64,000 nt of DNA from an uncultured Candidatus Saccharibacteria bacterium (GCA_964565685.1 CAZMFR010000003.1:20709-84708), one strand, 5' to 3'. Counted from the stretch's first letter, positions 8,719 through 11,681 are shown. Notes: a model not told the origin generated them from the letters alone. A program made the numbers and translations.

Positions 8719-9417
8719 CTAATACGTCAATTCTATCGTCCTGTTTACTTTCTTTGGACTGACATTCGAACAGTCTGCAATATGATTGTTCGCAGAATCA
8801 CTTGAATTATATCCGATATTATATCCAGCCGAAGTTATGTCGGTATAATCATGAGAATTTCCGAGAATAGGATTCAACTGATAATACCTCTCTACAGTCA
8901 CTGCGGCACAGCTTTGATTTGTCGTGCCATCGGTCGAGAAAGGAACATAAAAAGTAAACTTATAAATATTGCCCGACGAATTAGTTCCTGGAGAGGTTGC
9001 GAGATTATCTATGCAAGCTGCCGTCCCTATGCATTCATAGACCGGAATCGGAGCACCGGATGAAGAACAAGTGATCGGCGTTATCGGAGACGAAGTAGAA
9101 AAAGCGTATCCGCCGTTTGGACCAGCCCAATATTCTGCACAACCGAGGCCGCTGTCGGCGGCATAAAAAGCATTCGATGATTGCGTAGCGTTTGACGACA
9201 GAACGAATTCCTTGCGGCTGATGGTAAGCAGAGAGACGCCGAGGGCAAGAACGATCGAAGCAACGATCATGGCAAAGAGCAGCGTATAACCGGAAGAAGT
9301 AGAAGGTCGAAAATGCTCTGTCTGCCGACAGACACTGTCAGTCGAAAGCCGTGAATGCTTACACTTCCTTTCAACTCGAGACTCGGGGCTTTCTACTTTT
9401 TTGAAAATATTTCTCAT
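8719..9417 (-). CDS. Pilin-like protein (minor pilin) with a ~43-aa leader ending ...STSSG|YTLLF and no Glu at +5
   Basis: Class III signal-peptide-like G|YTLL followed by a hydrophobic helix. Trimmed to MRNIFKK. Lies adjacent to three prepilin genes. Confidence 0.55.
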
Positions 9418-9425
9418 ATCATTGA

Positions 9426-10112
9426 TTATTGCATAGGTGCATCGTACATCGTGTCTTCCAATGTCACTCCGCCGCCGCCGGTGACATCGCCAGGCCAAAT
9501 GACTGTAACAGTGACGTTTGCGGCATTGCCGTTTCCACCGATATTGCCGCCACTGCTCGTTGCTGTAAACGGTTGGACATAAAAATAACGAGTAAAAGTC
9601 GTGACTGGGTTTATTCCATCCTGAGTATAGCCGTTTGAGGATAGGTCGAGAGGCGGGCATGCAGTCGTATTTATATTTAGCAACGTACAAGAAGATTGGG
9701 TTATTTTATTATTTATAGTATCGATCATACACAGACCAGAGCTAGTACAACCTGTTTCCAAATCGATGCCCCCGCTCTTGATCCAATAATCGCCAATGTC
9801 TAAACTAGAATTGGCGCCGATATTCAACTCGTTATTATCCACAATGTTCCTCATATATTCCATTCCGTCTTGTGCCAAATACGATGCCATGAGCTGGTCG
9901 CGAGCATAGATAGACGCCGACAAGCTCTTTTCCGCGACGGTCAATGGCCCTGCTATAGCGATCATCAGAATGGTTATTGCCACCAGAGTCTCGACCAAGG
10001 TAAAGCCGGAAGAAGTAGAAAGCCGAAAGCCCCTAGTCGAAAGTCGGCTGTATTTGCATCTACTTTTGAAAGTTGACCATTGATCTTTGACTTTTTTTAA
10101 TATATTCCTCAT
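9426..10112 (-). CDS. Type IV pseudopilin with a 36-aa leader (…RLSTSSG|FTLVE)
   Basis: Canonical G|FTLVE prepilin-peptidase site followed by a hydrophobic helix. Confidence 0.8.
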   Translation of the reverse strand: MRNILKKVKDQWSTFKSRCKYSRLSTRGFRLSTSSGFTLVETLVAITILMIAIAGPLTVAEKSLSASIYARDQLMASYLAQDGMEYMRNIVDNNELNIGANSSLDIGDYWIKSGGIDLETGCTSSGLCMIDTINNKITQSSCTLLNINTTACPPLDLSSNGYTQDGINPVTTFTRYFYVQPFTATSSGGNIGGNGNAANVTVTVIWPGDVTGGGGVTLEDTMYDAPMQ

Positions 10113-10118
10113 GTTATT

Positions 10119-10901
10119 TTATGTCCGTTCAGATATCGTCGTCTGAAGATTGAAATATGTCTGCGTGCTCGAAGCCGAACCGGTGTAACCGGATATATAC
10201 AAAAAAACGCTTGGCTGGGTATTCGCCACAGCCGTGTTAACTTTTAAAGAATAAGCCGTAATGATGATCGACGGATCAATGATCGGGACATACTGCGTAT
10301 ACGTGTTTCCAAGAGGATCCGCGCATGGATCACTTGGATAGCTCGGATCATTGGATTCCTGTTGAGCCTTTTCAATCGTCCATGTATACACTGCAGGGTT
10401 AGATCCTGGAACTTGAACTGGTTCGAAATAATACGCATACGTCAGATTGCAAGACTGACCATTTGTTTGATCCATAGCTGTGTTCGAAGAAAGAAAAGCA
10501 ATGGAAGTGCCTGAATTTGAGTTTGAATTACCAGATATTATCAATGGTGAACATTGAGCGCCTTGGCTTGTTTGAAGAATAGGACCCGTATACATGCCGC
10601 TCGGATAGCATGTATATGCGCTCCCCAACCTTATCTCGCGCGTGATCGAATCCATGGCATAATTGATGTTGTTGACAGTGTCTTGAAGCGTTTGCGATTT
10701 CTTGCTTGCATCGACTATTTTGAGCAGAGCGGCGACGGCGATCACAGCCACGATCATGAATATCGCGATCGATACGAGCATTTCGACCAATGTAAAGCCG
10801 GAAGATCTGGAAGGAGCGGAAAGCGACAAGTGGAAATCAGAGAGTCGAGGCGACTTGCATTTTCTTTCTGCTTCATATTTTATATTTTCTACTTGTTCCA
10901 T
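10119..10901 (-). CDS. Type IV pseudopilin with a 35-aa leader (…PSRSSG|FTLVE)
   Basis: G|FTLVEMLVSIAIFMIV motif. Confidence 0.8.
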   Translation of the reverse strand: MEQVENIKYEAERKCKSPRLSDFHLSLSAPSRSSGFTLVEMLVSIAIFMIVAVIAVAALLKIVDASKKSQTLQDTVNNINYAMDSITREIRLGSAYTCYPSGMYTGPILQTSQGAQCSPLIISGNSNSNSGTSIAFLSSNTAMDQTNGQSCNLTYAYYFEPVQVPGSNPAVYTWTIEKAQQESNDPSYPSDPCADPLGNTYTQYVPIIDPSIIITAYSLKVNTAVANTQPSVFLYISGYTGSASSTQTYFNLQTTISERT

Positions 10902-10904
10902 ATT

Positions 10905-11681
10905 TTATTGATTCTGTACTGCTATCTCCCCCGTTTCATTCACAACGATGGAACGGGTCGATGTCTTGCTAGCATCTTCGACTTGAATCACGGCATAGGC
11001 GCACGGCGGGGCGTTTGTGGGACACAGCGAGCTGCCTTGTGCGACAATGATAGCATTCGGGTTAGGTCGTTTGAAAGTGATGTCGACAGAGGTGATCGAA
11101 TTTCCAGTGGTCGGGCAAGGATTTCCGGTGGTCGGAGGAGCGCTATTTTCGACATATAGGCATTTTATCAATCCGCCGCGAGCGAGAGTGTAAGTTGTGA
11201 TCAATGAGTCAGACGAAGATGTGTAAATTCCGTCTCCAAATGAATTATTGCCATTTGATGGATTCGAGTCAGCAAACAAGATCATCTGGCTCGGATTACC
11301 GCCTAGATTGTTTATATTAAAATCCATCCCAAAAGGATAGTTAAAATTCTGCGCAGAGCCCACGGTAGTCCCTTCCACGTTCAGACCGTACGATTGGGCA
11401 TCGCGCAATGCCAATGCGACATCATAAGACATGCTGGTCAGAAGAGTGCCGTCATTGAAACTCCCATAATTAGCCACAACCAAGGCGGTCATAAAGACAA
11501 AGATAGCGATGACTACTGTTAGCTCGACCAATGTAAAGCCGGAAGAAGAGAGCCGAAAGCGTCCTGCCTGCCTATAAGCACAGCAAGTCGAAAGTCCGGA
11601 GCCGTTTTTATCTTGACTTTTGATCTTTGGCTCTCGACTTTCGATTTTTTCTTCATCCTTGATTTTCTTGAATAAAAACAT
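10905..11681 (-). CDS. Type IV pseudopilin with a 48-aa leader (…RLSSSG|FTLVE)
   Basis: G|FTLVELTVVIAIFVF motif. Confidence 0.8.
   Translation of the reverse strand: MFLFKKIKDEEKIESREPKIKSQDKNGSGLSTCCAYRQAGRFRLSSSGFTLVELTVVIAIFVFMTALVVANYGSFNDGTLLTSMSYDVALALRDAQSYGLNVEGTTVGSAQNFNYPFGMDFNINNLGGNPSQMILFADSNPSNGNNSFGDGIYTSSSDSLITTYTLARGGLIKCLYVENSAPPTTGNPCPTTGNSITSVDITFKRPNPNAIIVAQGSSLCPTNAPPCAYAVIQVEDASKTSTRSIVVNETGEIAVQNQ

What the first reader, a model, noticed from the sequence alone, without database searches (positions are those of the whole stretch)
9289..11681. Four consecutive pseudopilin genes carry 35–48-aa leader peptides encoded by the dispersed repeat
Canonical type IV prepilin leaders are 6–25 aa, as in the short-leader pilins MKKG|FTLVEM at 13042 and MKKMNANRNGG|FTLIEL at 17301. 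Here the leaders are MRNILKKVKDQWSTFKSRCKYSRLSTRGFRLSTSSG|FTLVE, MEQVENIKYEAERKCKSPRLSDFHLSLSAPSRSSG|FTLVE, MFLFKKIKDEEKIESREPKIKSQDKNGSGLSTCCAYRQAGRFRLSSSG|FTLVE, and ~43 aa ending STSSG|YTLLF. No alternative ATG, GTG or TTG lies between the annotated start and the cleavage Gly. The leader DNA is built from the same words (GTCGAAAG, AGTAGAAAG, CTTCTTCCGGCTTTAC) as the non-coding repeats. This implies a mobile repeat supplied or extended the N-terminal leaders of pilus subunits, an unusual route to new signal sequences. The first gene also lacks the conserved Glu+5.
Basis: partly seen in the sequence, partly recalled or inferred. Interest (0 to 1): 0.65.

Follow-up and report, generated by a model that had tools for sequence, protein, structure and literature searches.

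The report
Hairpin repeats lengthen minor-pilin leader peptides
In this ultra-small (CPR/Patescibacteria-type) bacterium, the four minor pilus-subunit genes after the prepilin peptidase gene have 35-48-residue leader peptides, because hairpin-forming DNA repeats also found between genes sit, in frame and stop-free, in the part of the protein that is cut off; related genomes and some distant ones show the same thing.

Summary
The core observation holds. Four consecutive minus-strand prepilin genes downstream of pilD have 48, 35, 36 and 43 codons between their only plausible ATG and the Gly-1|Phe/Tyr+1 cleavage site. Both major pilins have 4 and 11.

Three details need correcting:
- Gene 2 has an in-frame TTG 11 codons before the Gly.
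- 'CTTCTTCCGGCTTTAC' is the conserved Ser-Ser-Gly|Phe-Thr coding sequence, not part of the dispersed repeat.
- The Glu5-less gene is the last gene of the operon.

The leader DNA belongs to loose families of imperfect hairpins whose arms are tandem 7-nt words. Other copies lie in intergenic spacers, around the 5S rRNA and in frame inside ligA.

Nine syntenic genomes show:
- a conserved N-terminal stub (MFxFKK, M[RK]NIFKK) and a conserved SSG| end, with variable hairpin inserts or none between them;
- different repeat families at the same gene, and the same family at non-orthologous genes.

Across 29 long junctions the pilin frame carries 3 stops, against 71 and 57 in the other frames, so the repeats are kept translatable.

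Seven-nt arrays are enriched just upstream of prepilin Gly codons in distant CPR loci and in three gammaproteobacterial MAGs.

Best reading: repeat elements occupy the cleaved-off leader as a safe harbour. A regulatory role is not excluded.

The parts
11685..12464 (-). Prepilin peptidase PilD (259 aa), immediately upstream of the four minor-pilin genes
   Evidence: Pfam A24_N_bact 9.7e-27 and Peptidase_A24 1.9e-10. It is 259 aa in all syntenic relatives whatever their leader lengths.
10905..11681 (-). Minor pilin g1 (258 aa; GspH/FimU-like by weak NCBIfam hits). Its 48-aa leader is 11538-11681.
   Evidence: N_methyl 21.4 bits against cut-off 21.2. The only canonical start is the ATG 4 nt after the pilD stop.
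11541..11658 (-). Repeat-derived hairpin insert in the g1 leader. Family C words are AAAAGTC / GACTTTC, with loop AAGTCAAGATAAAAACG.
   Evidence: RNA fold -43.2 kcal/mol, z -2.7 to -3.4. Inverted repeat I15. The same loop and words occur in L093 g4 and in the window's gatC-gatA spacer.
10119..10901 (-). Minor pilin g2 (260 aa; GspJ/PilW-like). Its 35-aa leader is 10797-10901. An alternative in-frame TTG lies at 10827-10829.
   Evidence: N_methyl 36 bits. The AF2 model has residues 1-35 at pLDDT ~46-52, helix 38-92 and a beta head. The TTG is shown.
10806..10894 (-). Decayed family-B hairpin insert in the g2 leader (AAGTAGAAAA..AGCAGAAAG-AAAATGCAAGTC-..CTTTCCGCT)
   Evidence: 19 nt at 95% identity to the intergenic copy at 4341-4359. 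Alignment A2. The fold is no better than shuffles, z +0.2 to +0.4.
9426..10112 (-). Minor pilin g3 (228 aa; PilV/GspI-like). Its 36-aa leader is 10005-10112.
   Evidence: N_methyl 25.6 bits. TIGR02523 PilV 3.9e-7, below cut-off. It has a single ATG start.
10013..10065 (-). Family-B hairpin insert in the g3 leader (AAGTAGA-TGCAAAT-..CTTTCGACT..CTTTCTACTT)
   Evidence: (D1). TRF finds a period-7 array at 10013-10046.
8719..9417 (-). Minor pilin g4 (232 aa; G|YTLLF, no Glu5; the last gene of the operon). Its 43-aa leader is 9289-9417.
   Evidence: The ORF listing TTG at 9690 overlaps g3 and is not the start. The ATG at 9417 lies 9 nt after the g3 stop, and the M-R-N-I-F-K-K stub is conserved in orthologues.
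9297..9398 (-). Family-B hairpin insert in the g4 leader (AAGTAGAAAG ... CCTTCTACTT), with an inner stem and a nested small GC palindrome
   Evidence: Fold -35 kcal/mol, z -1.3 to -1.8. Word matches.
4297..4373 (-). Non-coding family-B copy (ig4300) between two genes. It ends 13 nt before the ATG at 4293.
   Evidence: D1 reference copy. I5/I7 24-nt arms. Fold z -3.0. It has a stop in the frame equivalent to the pilin frame.
49613..49691 (-). Non-coding family-B copy (ig49600) just upstream of the RNase J-like gene
   Evidence: 82% identical to ig4300 over 60 nt. Fold z -4.45. Stops flank it in the equivalent frame.
18866..18924 (-). Non-coding hairpin AAGTCGAAAG...CTTTCGACTT after the pilC stop. 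Its loop is in the opposite orientation.
   Evidence: (z -2.7).
5868..5940 (-). Family-C copy in the gatC-gatA spacer
   Evidence: Fold z -2.5. The loop AAGTCAAGATAAACAAGG matches the g1 leader.
8185..8345 (-). In-frame repeat insert in ligA just before the KxDG motif. It consists of heptamer-type words plus a nested GC-rich hairpin (8190-8300).
   Evidence: (MFE -58.6, z -7.4). Relatives carry family-A words at the same site.
12491..13042 (-). Major-type pilin with a 4-aa leader (a control with no repeat)
   Evidence: The pilin next to pilD has a 4-11-aa leader in all nine genomes.

Best explanation
The four ORFs are the core minor pilins of a complete type IVa-like pilus cluster: PilM, PilO, PilB, PilT, PilC, two major-type pilins and PilD.

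How each gene is read (inferred):
- Each is translated from an ATG 4-9 nt after the upstream stop, in a genome that has essentially no Shine-Dalgarno sites.
- The ancestral leader was short: a Lys-rich stub (MFxFKK in g1, M[RK]NI[FL]KK in g3 and g4) joined directly to ..S-G|F.

What the leaders now contain (shown):
- Between stub and cleavage site, each gene holds 25-38 codons derived from dispersed, imperfectly palindromic repeats.
- The repeat arms are tandem 7-nt words (AAGTAGA/AAGTCGA-type and their complements) around a semi-conserved loop (GAAAATGCAAGTC or AAGTCAAGAYAAAAACG).

How it works (inferred):
- The leader stays in the cytoplasm and is removed by PilD after Gly-1, so it is the one part of a prepilin whose sequence hardly matters.
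- Repeat copies that land or spread there survive provided they stay in frame, stop-free and net basic.
- They are therefore translated and then discarded.
- Spread among paralogues is probably helped by the highly conserved alpha1N-coding DNA next to them, either through recombination or through a targeting preference.

Shown versus inferred:
- Shown: the anatomy, homology to non-coding copies, orthologue polymorphism and frame conservation.
- Inferred: actual translation and cleavage, the mode of spread, and selective neutrality.
For: 1. Cluster identity.
2. Start codons: long leaders are unavoidable in g1, g3 and g4, even allowing rare start codons.
3. Stub conservation: the N-terminal stub is conserved across nine syntenic genomes with synonymous differences (AGA/AGG, ATT/ATA, TTC/TTT). 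Sequences diverge exactly after AAAAAA|G. Short-leader orthologues exist: L083 g4 MRDIFKKIPSSGG|Y, L090 g1 MFLLKKDSG|F and L081/L084/L093 g2 with 9 aa.
4. Junction test not conditioned on ORF calls: in 29 junctions of >=60 nt, the pilin frame has a stop in 3 (3 stops in total). The other frames have stops in 24 (71 stops) and 25 (57 stops). The in-frame ATG lies 2-14 nt after the upstream stop in 31 of 37 junctions.
5. Non-coding counterparts: copies with the same words and loop exist, and ig4300 and ig49600 carry stops in the equivalent frame.
6. Placement across genomes: different families occupy the same gene (g4 holds family B in WIN and L081, A in L084, D in L091, C in L093). The same family sits in non-orthologous genes (family A in L082 g1+g2, L084 g4, L092 g2).
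7. Range of preservation: copies run from perfect arrays (4-5 units at 100%) to decayed ones (WIN g2 and g3 fold no better than shuffles). This fits a birth-and-decay cycle.
8. Other coding sites: in-frame copies occur in ligA at a loop before KxDG in four genomes and in ORF 26582-27373.
9. Leader properties: net charge +1 to +9. The g2 leader is predicted disordered. PilD is unchanged at 259 aa in all nine genomes.
10. Controls: major pilins next to pilD always have 4-11-aa leaders.
Against: - No direct evidence of translation or of PilD cleavage of such long leaders.
- Occupancy is far higher than a merely tolerant site would predict. 23 of 35 period-7 arrays lie in 4.7% of the bases of the syntenic loci, and about 27 of 37 minor-pilin leaders are long. 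This needs either targeting or selection.
- The 3' arm nearly always ends about 6 nt before the Gly codon, which hints at a positional constraint.
- In some distant CPR genes the start codon lies in the hairpin loop, so only the 3' arm is coding.
- No transposase, terminal inverted repeats with target-site duplication, or recent identical copies were found to show mobility.
- The arms of some families keep 5-7 of 7 positions complementary while their sequence changes between families, which could reflect selection on pairing.
Confidence: 0.6

Rival explanations
1. The hairpins are functional cis-elements, acting at RNA or DNA level, placed just before the alpha1N-coding region of minor-pilin cistrons. 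They could throttle or couple translation, act as processing or stability sites, or attenuate transcription so that minor pilins are made at low stoichiometry. On this view the long leader peptide is a by-product of having to keep the frame open.
For: - Period-7 arrays are strongly enriched within 150 nt upstream of prepilin Gly codons. Syntenic clade: 23/35 arrays in 4.7% of bases, p 1.5e-22. 39 distant CPR loci: 17/29 in 7.8%, p 3e-12. Three gammaproteobacterial MAG loci: 7/17 in 5.7%, p 2e-5.
- The 3' arm keeps a fixed position about 6 nt before the Gly codon across families.
- The arms differ between families but stay 5-7/7 complementary around a conserved loop.
- The 27 long leaders have a mean fold z of -2.45, and 12 have z < -2.
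- Major pilins lack the hairpins.
- The same words form the stem flanking 5S rRNA.
- In L006 and L009 the start codon sits in the loop.
Against: - Orthologues with 9-13-aa leaders and no hairpin exist for all four genes.
- Many copies are decayed and fold no better than shuffles, including WIN g2 and g3.
- The distance from the ATG to the hairpin varies from about 8 to 47 nt.
- The same elements occur in unrelated places such as a ligA loop, spacers and rRNA flanks.
- No Rfam family matches the region.
Confidence: 0.25
2. The 7-nt tandem arrays in the leader-coding region are contingency (phase-variation) repeats. Gain or loss of one unit shifts the frame and switches a minor pilin off. This would resemble the CTCTT repeats in the Neisseria opa leader-coding region and the poly-G tract in the pilC signal-peptide region.
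For: - The unit length of 7 is not a multiple of 3.
- Several relatives carry perfect arrays of 4-5.3 units: L082, L084, L090, L091, L093.
- The arrays sit in a dispensable 5' coding segment of surface-organelle genes.
- That opa and pilC work this way is from my own knowledge. It was not checked in a paper here.
Against: - No OFF allele was seen. 0 of 184 CPR prepilin genes lack a start, and 26 of 29 long junctions are fully open.
- The one frameshifted pilin (L090, 2556-2590) is a poly-A length difference in a likely long-read assembly.
- Independent assemblies and samples show identical leaders: L084 = L085, L083 ~ L087, P0068 vs P0069.
- The window's own arrays are impure, at 66-79% match.
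- Phase variation does not explain why the two arrays are complementary.
Confidence: 0.07
3. The upstream region is not translated. The true start is a non-canonical or overlooked codon close to Gly-1, and the open frame is an accident of the repeat's composition.
For: - g2 does have an in-frame TTG that would give an 11-aa leader.
- The purine-rich and pyrimidine-rich arms are intrinsically poor in stop codons in one frame. The non-coding gatC-gatA copy is also open in the equivalent frame.
- The genome lacks SD sites, so starts cannot be ranked by SD.
Against: - g1, g3 and g4 have no ATG/GTG/TTG, and no ATT/ATC/ATA/CTG within 29-40 codons of Gly-1.
- The other two frames of the same DNA carry 71 and 57 stops against 3 in the pilin frame.
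- The N-terminal stub is conserved at the amino-acid level with synonymous changes, whether or not an insert is present.
- Non-coding copies ig4300 and ig49600 do carry stops in the equivalent frame.
- A prepilin needs some leader ending in Gly for PilD processing (PMC10191384).
Confidence: 0.05

Closest known systems
Rickettsia palindromic elements (RPEs): dispersed palindromic repeats inserted in frame into protein-coding genes (review PMC10969869)
   Same: - Dispersed, imperfectly palindromic repeats of about 80-150 nt occur both between genes and in frame inside ORFs.
- The insert is translated as part of the host protein, at sites that tolerate extra residues (here the cleaved leader and a ligA surface loop).
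- Orthologues show presence/absence polymorphism.
- The host is a small-genome, host-dependent bacterium.
   Different: - No sequence relation to RPEs was shown or tested.
- The arms here are tandem heptanucleotide arrays.
- The copies concentrate in one very specific place, directly upstream of the Gly-1 codon of prepilins, rather than in many unrelated enzymes.
- The insert is removed from the mature protein.
- The lineage is CPR rather than Alphaproteobacteria.
Repeat-containing leader-coding regions of Neisseria surface genes (opa CTCTT repeats; pilC poly-G) - from my own knowledge, not checked in a paper here
   Same: Short tandem repeats whose unit is not a multiple of 3 lie in the signal/leader-coding part of surface-structure genes. 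There, the peptide sequence matters little.
   Different: The Neisseria repeats are single simple tracts that drive ON/OFF switching. Here there are two complementary arrays forming a hairpin. All copies seen are in frame, and no length variation was found.
REP / REPIN / BIME elements mobilised by RAYT (REP-associated tyrosine transposases)
   Same: Short, genome-characteristic, hairpin-forming dispersed repeats, often found between genes of an operon. Family B words contain GTAG.
   Different: - REPs are extragenic.
- No RAYT is present in the window. The only Y1 transposase is an IS200 equivalog (113.5 bits), and the RAYT model scores 21.8 against a cut-off of 80.
- That gene's flanks lack the repeat words.
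Long class III signal-peptide leaders of type IVb pilins and of Streptococcus sanguinis type IVa pilins (PMC10191384)
   Same: A hydrophilic, basic leader ending in Gly is removed by the prepilin peptidase, and leader length is known to vary.
   Different: - Those long leaders are lineage-typical peptides on major pilins. They are not repeat-derived and, as far as I know, are about 15-30 aa.
- Here the major pilins are short (4 and 11 aa) and only the minor pilins are long (35-48 aa, and up to 51-66 aa in relatives).
- The extra length is dispersed-repeat DNA that varies between close relatives.
[quoted passage not shown]
   Same: Coding sequence with dyad symmetry that is dispersed, probably mobile, and often sits in membrane-targeted proteins.
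   Different: PARCELs are 25-residue protein-domain repeats kept in the mature protein and detected by a protein HMM. Here the peptide is not conserved and is discarded.

Membership tests
Type IV pilin / pseudopilin (class III signal peptide substrates of PilD) | Leader ending in Gly (or Ala), followed by about 20 hydrophobic residues (N_methyl / GFxxxE motif) | tested here: met
   Pfam N_methyl is above the gathering score for g1 (21.4/21.2), g2 (36) and g3 (25.6). g4 has G|[11 protein letters not shown] but no Pfam hit.
Type IV pilin / pseudopilin (class III signal peptide substrates of PilD) | Glu at +5 | tested here: met
   Present in g1-g3 (FTLVE). Absent in g4 (YTLLF) in all nine genomes, as in GspK/PilX-type last minor pilins. 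The comparison to GspK/PilX is from my own knowledge.
Type IV pilin / pseudopilin (class III signal peptide substrates of PilD) | Genomic association with a prepilin peptidase and pilus assembly genes | tested here: met
   PilD is directly upstream. PilM, PilO, PilB, PilT and PilC lie in the same minus-strand cluster.
Type IV pilin / pseudopilin (class III signal peptide substrates of PilD) | Lollipop fold (long N-terminal helix plus beta head) | tested here: inconclusive
Type IV pilin / pseudopilin (class III signal peptide substrates of PilD) | Actual cleavage after Gly-1 and N-methylation by PilD | not testable with these tools
   Needs biochemistry or proteomics.
RPE-like in-frame palindromic repeat | Dispersed repeat family with copies in both non-coding and coding DNA | tested here: met
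   Word enrichment. Alignment A2. Non-coding copies at 4297-4373, 49613-49691, 18866-18924 and 5868-5940. Coding copies in g1-g4, ligA and ORF 26582-27373.
RPE-like in-frame palindromic repeat | Palindromic (hairpin-forming) structure | tested here: met
   Non-coding copies fold at z -2.7 to -4.5. The 27 long leaders have mean z -2.45. WIN g2 and g3 are decayed (z about 0).
RPE-like in-frame palindromic repeat | Insertion keeps the host reading frame, and orthologues without the insert exist | tested here: met
   Frame test. Empty-site orthologues.
RPE-like in-frame palindromic repeat | Sequence homology to the described Rickettsia RPE families | not tested
   No RPE sequences were compared. 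This is a resemblance in behaviour only, so I do not file these as RPE members.
REP/REPIN mobilised by RAYT | A RAYT gene in the genome, usually flanked by REPs | tested here: not met
   Within the 64-kb window, the only Y1 transposase is an IS200 equivalog. The RAYT model scores 21.8 against a cut-off of 80, and its flanks lack the words. The rest of the genome was not seen.
MITE | Terminal inverted repeats plus target-site duplication, related to a resident IS | tested here: inconclusive
   The whole element is an inverted repeat. Comparison of filled and empty sites shows no clear duplication, and no related IS was found.
Simple-sequence contingency locus (phase variation) | Tandem repeat with a unit not a multiple of 3 in the 5' coding region | tested here: met
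   Period-7 arrays lie in the leaders. They are impure in the window (66-79% match) and perfect in several relatives.
Simple-sequence contingency locus (phase variation) | Unit-number variation or OFF alleles among strains or reads | tested here: not met
   No startless prepilin among 184 genes. Leaders are identical in independent assemblies. Read-level data are not available.

The most novel reading that the evidence does not exclude
Hairpins whose arms are tandem heptanucleotide arrays may be a previously undescribed class of element with a specific relationship to prepilin genes. They sit with their 3' arm about 6 nt upstream of the Gly-1 codon, next to the conserved GFTLxE-coding DNA. They are seen in many CPR lineages and in some Gammaproteobacteria. 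Two readings are possible. Either the element homes to this conserved motif and uses the cleaved leader as a safe harbour, or it is a selected control device for minor-pilin expression (translation, processing or switching). Either way it produces the longest class III leaders on record: 48 aa here and up to 51-66 aa in relatives.
Probability: 0.3. Interest if true: 0.8.

Novelty: new variant of a known kind. Interest (0 to 1): 0.62.

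Why it matters
- **Leader length.** A cleaved signal-peptide leader can act as a sink for repeat DNA inside a coding sequence. The result is minor-pilin leaders two to four times the usual length, in organisms whose type IV pili are thought to be central to their episymbiotic life.
- **Annotation.** Tools such as PilFind or SignalP, and gene callers, can miss or mis-start these genes. 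Several homologues here were called from the Met after Glu5.
- **PilD tolerance.** If the leaders are really made, PilD tolerates leaders of about 50 aa, which is testable.
- **Repeat biology.** Enrichment of heptamer-array hairpins next to the prepilin cleavage-site codons in distant CPR lineages and a few Gammaproteobacteria suggests either a targeting mechanism or a regulatory role. I found neither described in the literature library.
- **Parallel with Rickettsia.** The in-frame ligA copies suggest these CPR genomes, like Rickettsia, tolerate palindromic repeats inside essential genes.

Tried and rejected
- **Rfam.** At gathering thresholds there was no RNA family in 9289-11681. Only rRNA, tRNA, tmRNA and a group I intron matched elsewhere in the window.
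- **IS200/RAYT link.** The TnpA at 17514-17963 is an ordinary IS200 equivalog and its flanks lack the repeat words. I rejected it as the mobilising enzyme on present evidence.
- **Genome-contig scan.** I used those loci as a distant CPR and non-CPR panel.
- **Metagenome-contig scan.** It gave only 4 loci. The close syntenic relatives came from the look-up of encoding contigs.
- **Translational-coupling idea.** I considered that the lack of SD sites forces intercistronic hairpins into coding DNA. This is weakened by the gatC-gatA spacer copy, which lies in an about 80-nt untranslated spacer.
- **Genome-specific words.** I rejected the idea that the repeat words are specific to each genome. Several families (A-F) are shared among genomes, and single genomes hold several families.
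- **Formal covariation count.** I did not attempt one, because the arms align in shifting registers. Arm complementarity (5-7 of 7) was checked by hand.
- **Literature.** I found no paper on REP, MITE or heptamer repeats in CPR, or on long CPR pilin leaders.

Full report
**What is there**

The window comes from a CPR/Patescibacteria-type genome. Its 23S rRNA carries a group I intron, and relatives are labelled Paceibacteria, Parcubacteria and similar.

On the minus strand lies a complete type IV pilus cluster:
- PilM 25039-26157
- PilO 23666-24241
- PilB 21627-23342
- a response regulator
- PilT 20142-21200
- PilC 18927-20135
- pilins at 16774-17301 and 12491-13042
- PilD 11685-12464

Four prepilin ORFs follow PilD:

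| Gene | Coordinates | Leader length before G\|FTLVE (G\|YTLLF in g4) |
|---|---|---|
| g1 | 10905-11681 | 48 aa |
| g2 | 10119-10901 | 35 aa |
| g3 | 9426-10112 | 36 aa |
| g4 | 8719-9417 | 43 aa |

The two major-type pilins have 4- and 11-aa leaders. The same long-leader proteins are called on 5-7 independent contigs from four sources, and a 99%-identical variant has the same leader.

**Corrections to the observation**

- g2 has an in-frame TTG at 10827-10829 that would give an 11-aa leader.
- g1, g3 and g4 have no other ATG/GTG/TTG. Even ATT/ATC/ATA/CTG would leave leaders of 29, 33 and 40 aa.
- The word CTTCTTCCGGCTTTAC is found only at the four cleavage sites. It is the SSG|FT coding sequence, not the dispersed repeat.
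- The Glu5-less gene is the last gene of the operon. It lacks Glu5 in every orthologue.

**The repeat in this window**

AGTAGAAAG (<=1 mismatch) occurs 46 times against 12.6 expected. AGTCGAAAG occurs 7 times against 0.78 expected. The hits cluster in these places:
- the four leaders
- intergenic hairpins at 4297-4373, 49613-49691 and 18866-18924
- the gatC-gatA spacer (5868-5940)
- both flanks of the 5S rRNA

Aligned, the copies share one architecture: purine-rich 7-nt words, then a loop (GAAAATGCAAGTC-like), then the complementary pyrimidine-rich words.

The non-coding copies fold well, with z -2.7 to -4.5. The g1 and g4 leaders fold moderately (z -2.7 and -1.3). The g2 and g3 leaders fold no better than shuffles.

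BLAST identity between copies is modest, so this is a loose, partly decayed family. In the frame equivalent to the pilin frame, the non-coding copies ig4300 and ig49600 carry stop codons.

**Orthologues**

Homologues of g2 range from 9-aa leaders (MKKQSIQSG|F, 60-66% identical proteins) to 66-aa leaders made of periodic peptides such as SYKLQV..LATCHL or NLQPTTYHLQP.

I fetched eight syntenic loci with the order pilin, PilD, four or five minor pilins, LigA, GatC. Across the nine genomes:
- The pilin next to PilD always has a 4-11-aa leader.
- About 27 of 37 minor-pilin leaders are >=20 aa, and up to 51 aa.
- The first codons are conserved with synonymous differences. g4 reads ATG AGA/AGG AAT ATT/ATA TTC/TTT AAA AAA. 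g1 reads ATG TTT TT(A/T) .. AAA AAA.
- The end ..TC(C/T) GG(C/T)|TT(T/C) is also conserved.
- Between them, sequences diverge right after AAAAAA|G. There they are either absent (L083 g4 MRDIFKKIPSSGG|Y, L090 g1 MFLLKKDSG|F) or filled with hairpin repeats.

**Frame test**

I defined each junction from the upstream gene's stop to the Gly codon, independently of ORF calls, and took the 29 junctions of >=60 nt:

| Frame | Junctions with a stop | Total stops |
|---|---|---|
| Pilin frame | 3 of 29 | 3 |
| Second frame | 24 of 29 | 71 |
| Third frame | 25 of 29 | 57 |

The in-frame ATG lies 2-14 nt after the upstream stop in 31 of 37 junctions. The genome has essentially no Shine-Dalgarno motifs, and many first genes have TATAAT 6-9 nt before the ATG. 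A start directly after the upstream stop is therefore the expected arrangement.

Together with the stub conservation, this argues that the repeats are translated.

**Anatomy of the inserts**

All long leaders contain tandem 7-nt arrays as hairpin arms, and occasionally 9-nt arrays. Several families recur:

| Family | Arm words (loop) | Where found |
|---|---|---|
| A | AAGTTAC x4 / ACTTGCC x4 | L082 g1 and g2; L084 g4; L092 g2; ligA in L082 and L084 |
| B | AAAGTAG/AAAGTAT ... CTTTCTACTT or TTTCAAT x4 | window g2-g4 and intergenic copies; L081 g4; L091 g2-orthologue (5001-5753); L092 g3 |
| C | AAAAGTC / GACTTTC (loop AAGTCAAGAYAAAAACG) | window g1; gatC-gatA spacer; L093 g4 |
| D | AGTCCCT / ACTAGGA | L091; L093 g3 |
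| E | AAAAGGC / TTTGCAC | L090 g2; window 23S-5S spacer |
| F | CATAAAGTC | L090 g4 |

- The arms are 5-7 of 7 complementary.
- In family A, the perfect complement would contain TAA.
- One gene (g4) holds family B, A, D or C in different genomes, and one family sits in non-orthologous genes. This points to movement or conversion rather than vertical descent.
- Copies range from perfect arrays to decayed ones.
- The leaders have net charge +1 to +9.
- The g2 leader is predicted disordered, ahead of a long helix and a beta head.

**Beyond the pilins and beyond this clade**

The same kind of element sits in frame in ligA, just before the KxDG motif, in four genomes. The window's copy also carries a nested GC-rich hairpin with MFE -58.6 and z -7.4. 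Another in-frame copy lies in ORF 26582-27373.

Period-7 arrays are concentrated in the 150 nt upstream of prepilin Gly codons:

| Panel | Arrays in leader windows | Share of bases | p |
|---|---|---|---|
| Syntenic clade | 23 of 35 | 4.7% | 1.5e-22 |
| 39 distant CPR loci | 17 of 29 | 7.8% | 3e-12 |
| Non-CPR loci (three gammaproteobacterial MAG loci) | 7 of 17 | 5.7% | 2e-5 |

One gammaproteobacterial example is the L065 leader MMKKSFGFRISGFELISFGRAKTTLSSSNPQLATRNSQLKQAG|FTLVEM.

In the distant CPR panel, 14 of the 17 arrays lie inside the prepilin ORF. In three cases the start codon sits in the loop. No prepilin among 184 CPR genes lacks a start. Only 15 have an obligate leader of >=20 aa, and the window's 48, 43 and 36 aa are at the top of that distribution.

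**Mechanism**

- Shown: the anatomy, homology to non-coding copies, orthologue polymorphism and frame conservation.
- Inferred: the prepilins are made with long basic cytoplasmic leaders and inserted via alpha1N, and PilD removes the whole leader after Gly-1 (general mechanism in PMC10191384). Repeat DNA in that segment then costs little as long as it stays in frame and stop-free.
- Open question: the high occupancy and the fixed position of the 3' arm need an extra factor. This could be a targeting preference next to the conserved GFTLxE-coding DNA, recombinational spread among paralogues anchored on that DNA, or selection for a hairpin function.

I rank the safe-harbour reading first. Empty-site orthologues exist for every gene, many copies are decayed, and the same elements occur in unrelated sites. 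A regulatory hairpin comes second, phase variation third and non-translation last.

**Comparison with known systems, and novelty**

In behaviour, the closest match is the Rickettsia palindromic elements, which insert in frame into genes (PMC10969869). In location, the inserts recall repeat tracts in Neisseria leader-coding regions (my own knowledge). In leader length, they exceed type IVb and S. sanguinis leaders.

They fail the one REP/RAYT feature I could test: no RAYT in the window. I did not compare them with RPE sequences, so I do not file them as members of either family.

I found no description of such repeats, or of long pilin leaders, in CPR. I rate this a new variant of a known kind. 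The cross-phylum association with the prepilin cleavage site is the part most worth following up.

Noticed in passing
window 8185-8345 (-), inside ligA 6425-8704: ligA carries an in-frame repeat insert just before the KxDG adenylation motif. It has heptamer-type words ([16 protein letters not shown]) plus a nested GC-rich hairpin at 8190-8300 (MFE -58.6, z -7.4). Relatives L082 and L084 have family-A words at the same site, and L081 has another insert there.
   Followed up: partly
window 26985-27085 (+), inside ORF 26582-27373: Another in-frame hairpin: 30-nt arms at 70% complementarity, period-7 words GATTCAA, fold z -3.5. It lies in an unrelated 263-aa ORF that I did not identify.
   Followed up: partly
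window 56420-56700 (-) and 57862-57967: The 5S rRNA (56487-56593) is flanked by the same words as the dispersed repeat (CTTTCGACT upstream, AGAAAGTCGAAAAAG downstream), which can pair as a processing stem. The 23S-5S region holds a heptamer-array hairpin (TCAAAAC / TTTGCAC).
   Followed up: no
whole window (gene starts listed): Almost no gene has a Shine-Dalgarno-like motif. Many first genes have TATAAT/TATACT 6-9 nt before the ATG, which suggests leaderless transcripts. Genes inside operons start 2-14 nt after the upstream stop.
   Followed up: partly
window 17514-17963 (-): An IS200/IS605-family TnpA (NCBIfam transpos_IS200, 113.5 bits) is followed by a GC-rich hairpin. Its flanks contain none of the repeat words. 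It is not a RAYT (21.8 against a cut-off of 80).
   Followed up: yes
window 5868-5940 (-): The gatC-gatA spacer holds a family-C repeat copy. Its frame is open from the gatC stop to the gatA ATG and in phase with it (..KSQDKQGFRLGTRDLRLNIM), but it contains no start codon.
   Followed up: no
loci L065 3190-4030, L040 3930-4640, L060 331-367 (gammaproteobacterial MAGs): Heptamer-array hairpins also sit in the leader-coding regions of minor pilins outside CPR. For example, two consecutive genes in L065 carry GTTTCGG x4 / AACTCGC x4. Acidobacteriota loci L031, L036 and L041 have similar hairpins in non-coding DNA.
   Followed up: partly
window 57921-62279 (-), 58476-59012: The 23S rRNA gene spans 4359 nt and contains a group I intron (Rfam 52.6 bits). 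Further strongly structured insert-like regions lie at 58311-58491 and 61911-62071.
   Followed up: no
window 40909-41138 (-): tRNA-Ile(TAT) at 40994-41068 is flanked by near-identical partial copies of its two halves (repeat families D4 and D14). ARAGORN finds only one intact gene.
   Followed up: partly
window 47188-47656: There are three copies of the perfect palindrome ACAATGTATATACATTGTAAA, 194 and 251 nt apart, in a non-coding stretch. They look operator-like.
   Followed up: no
locus L090 2556-2590: A major-type pilin gene is out of frame at ATGAAAAAATGA. One fewer A would give MKNERKRKAG|FTLIE. This is either a homopolymer error in a long-read assembly or a poly-A switch.
   Followed up: partly
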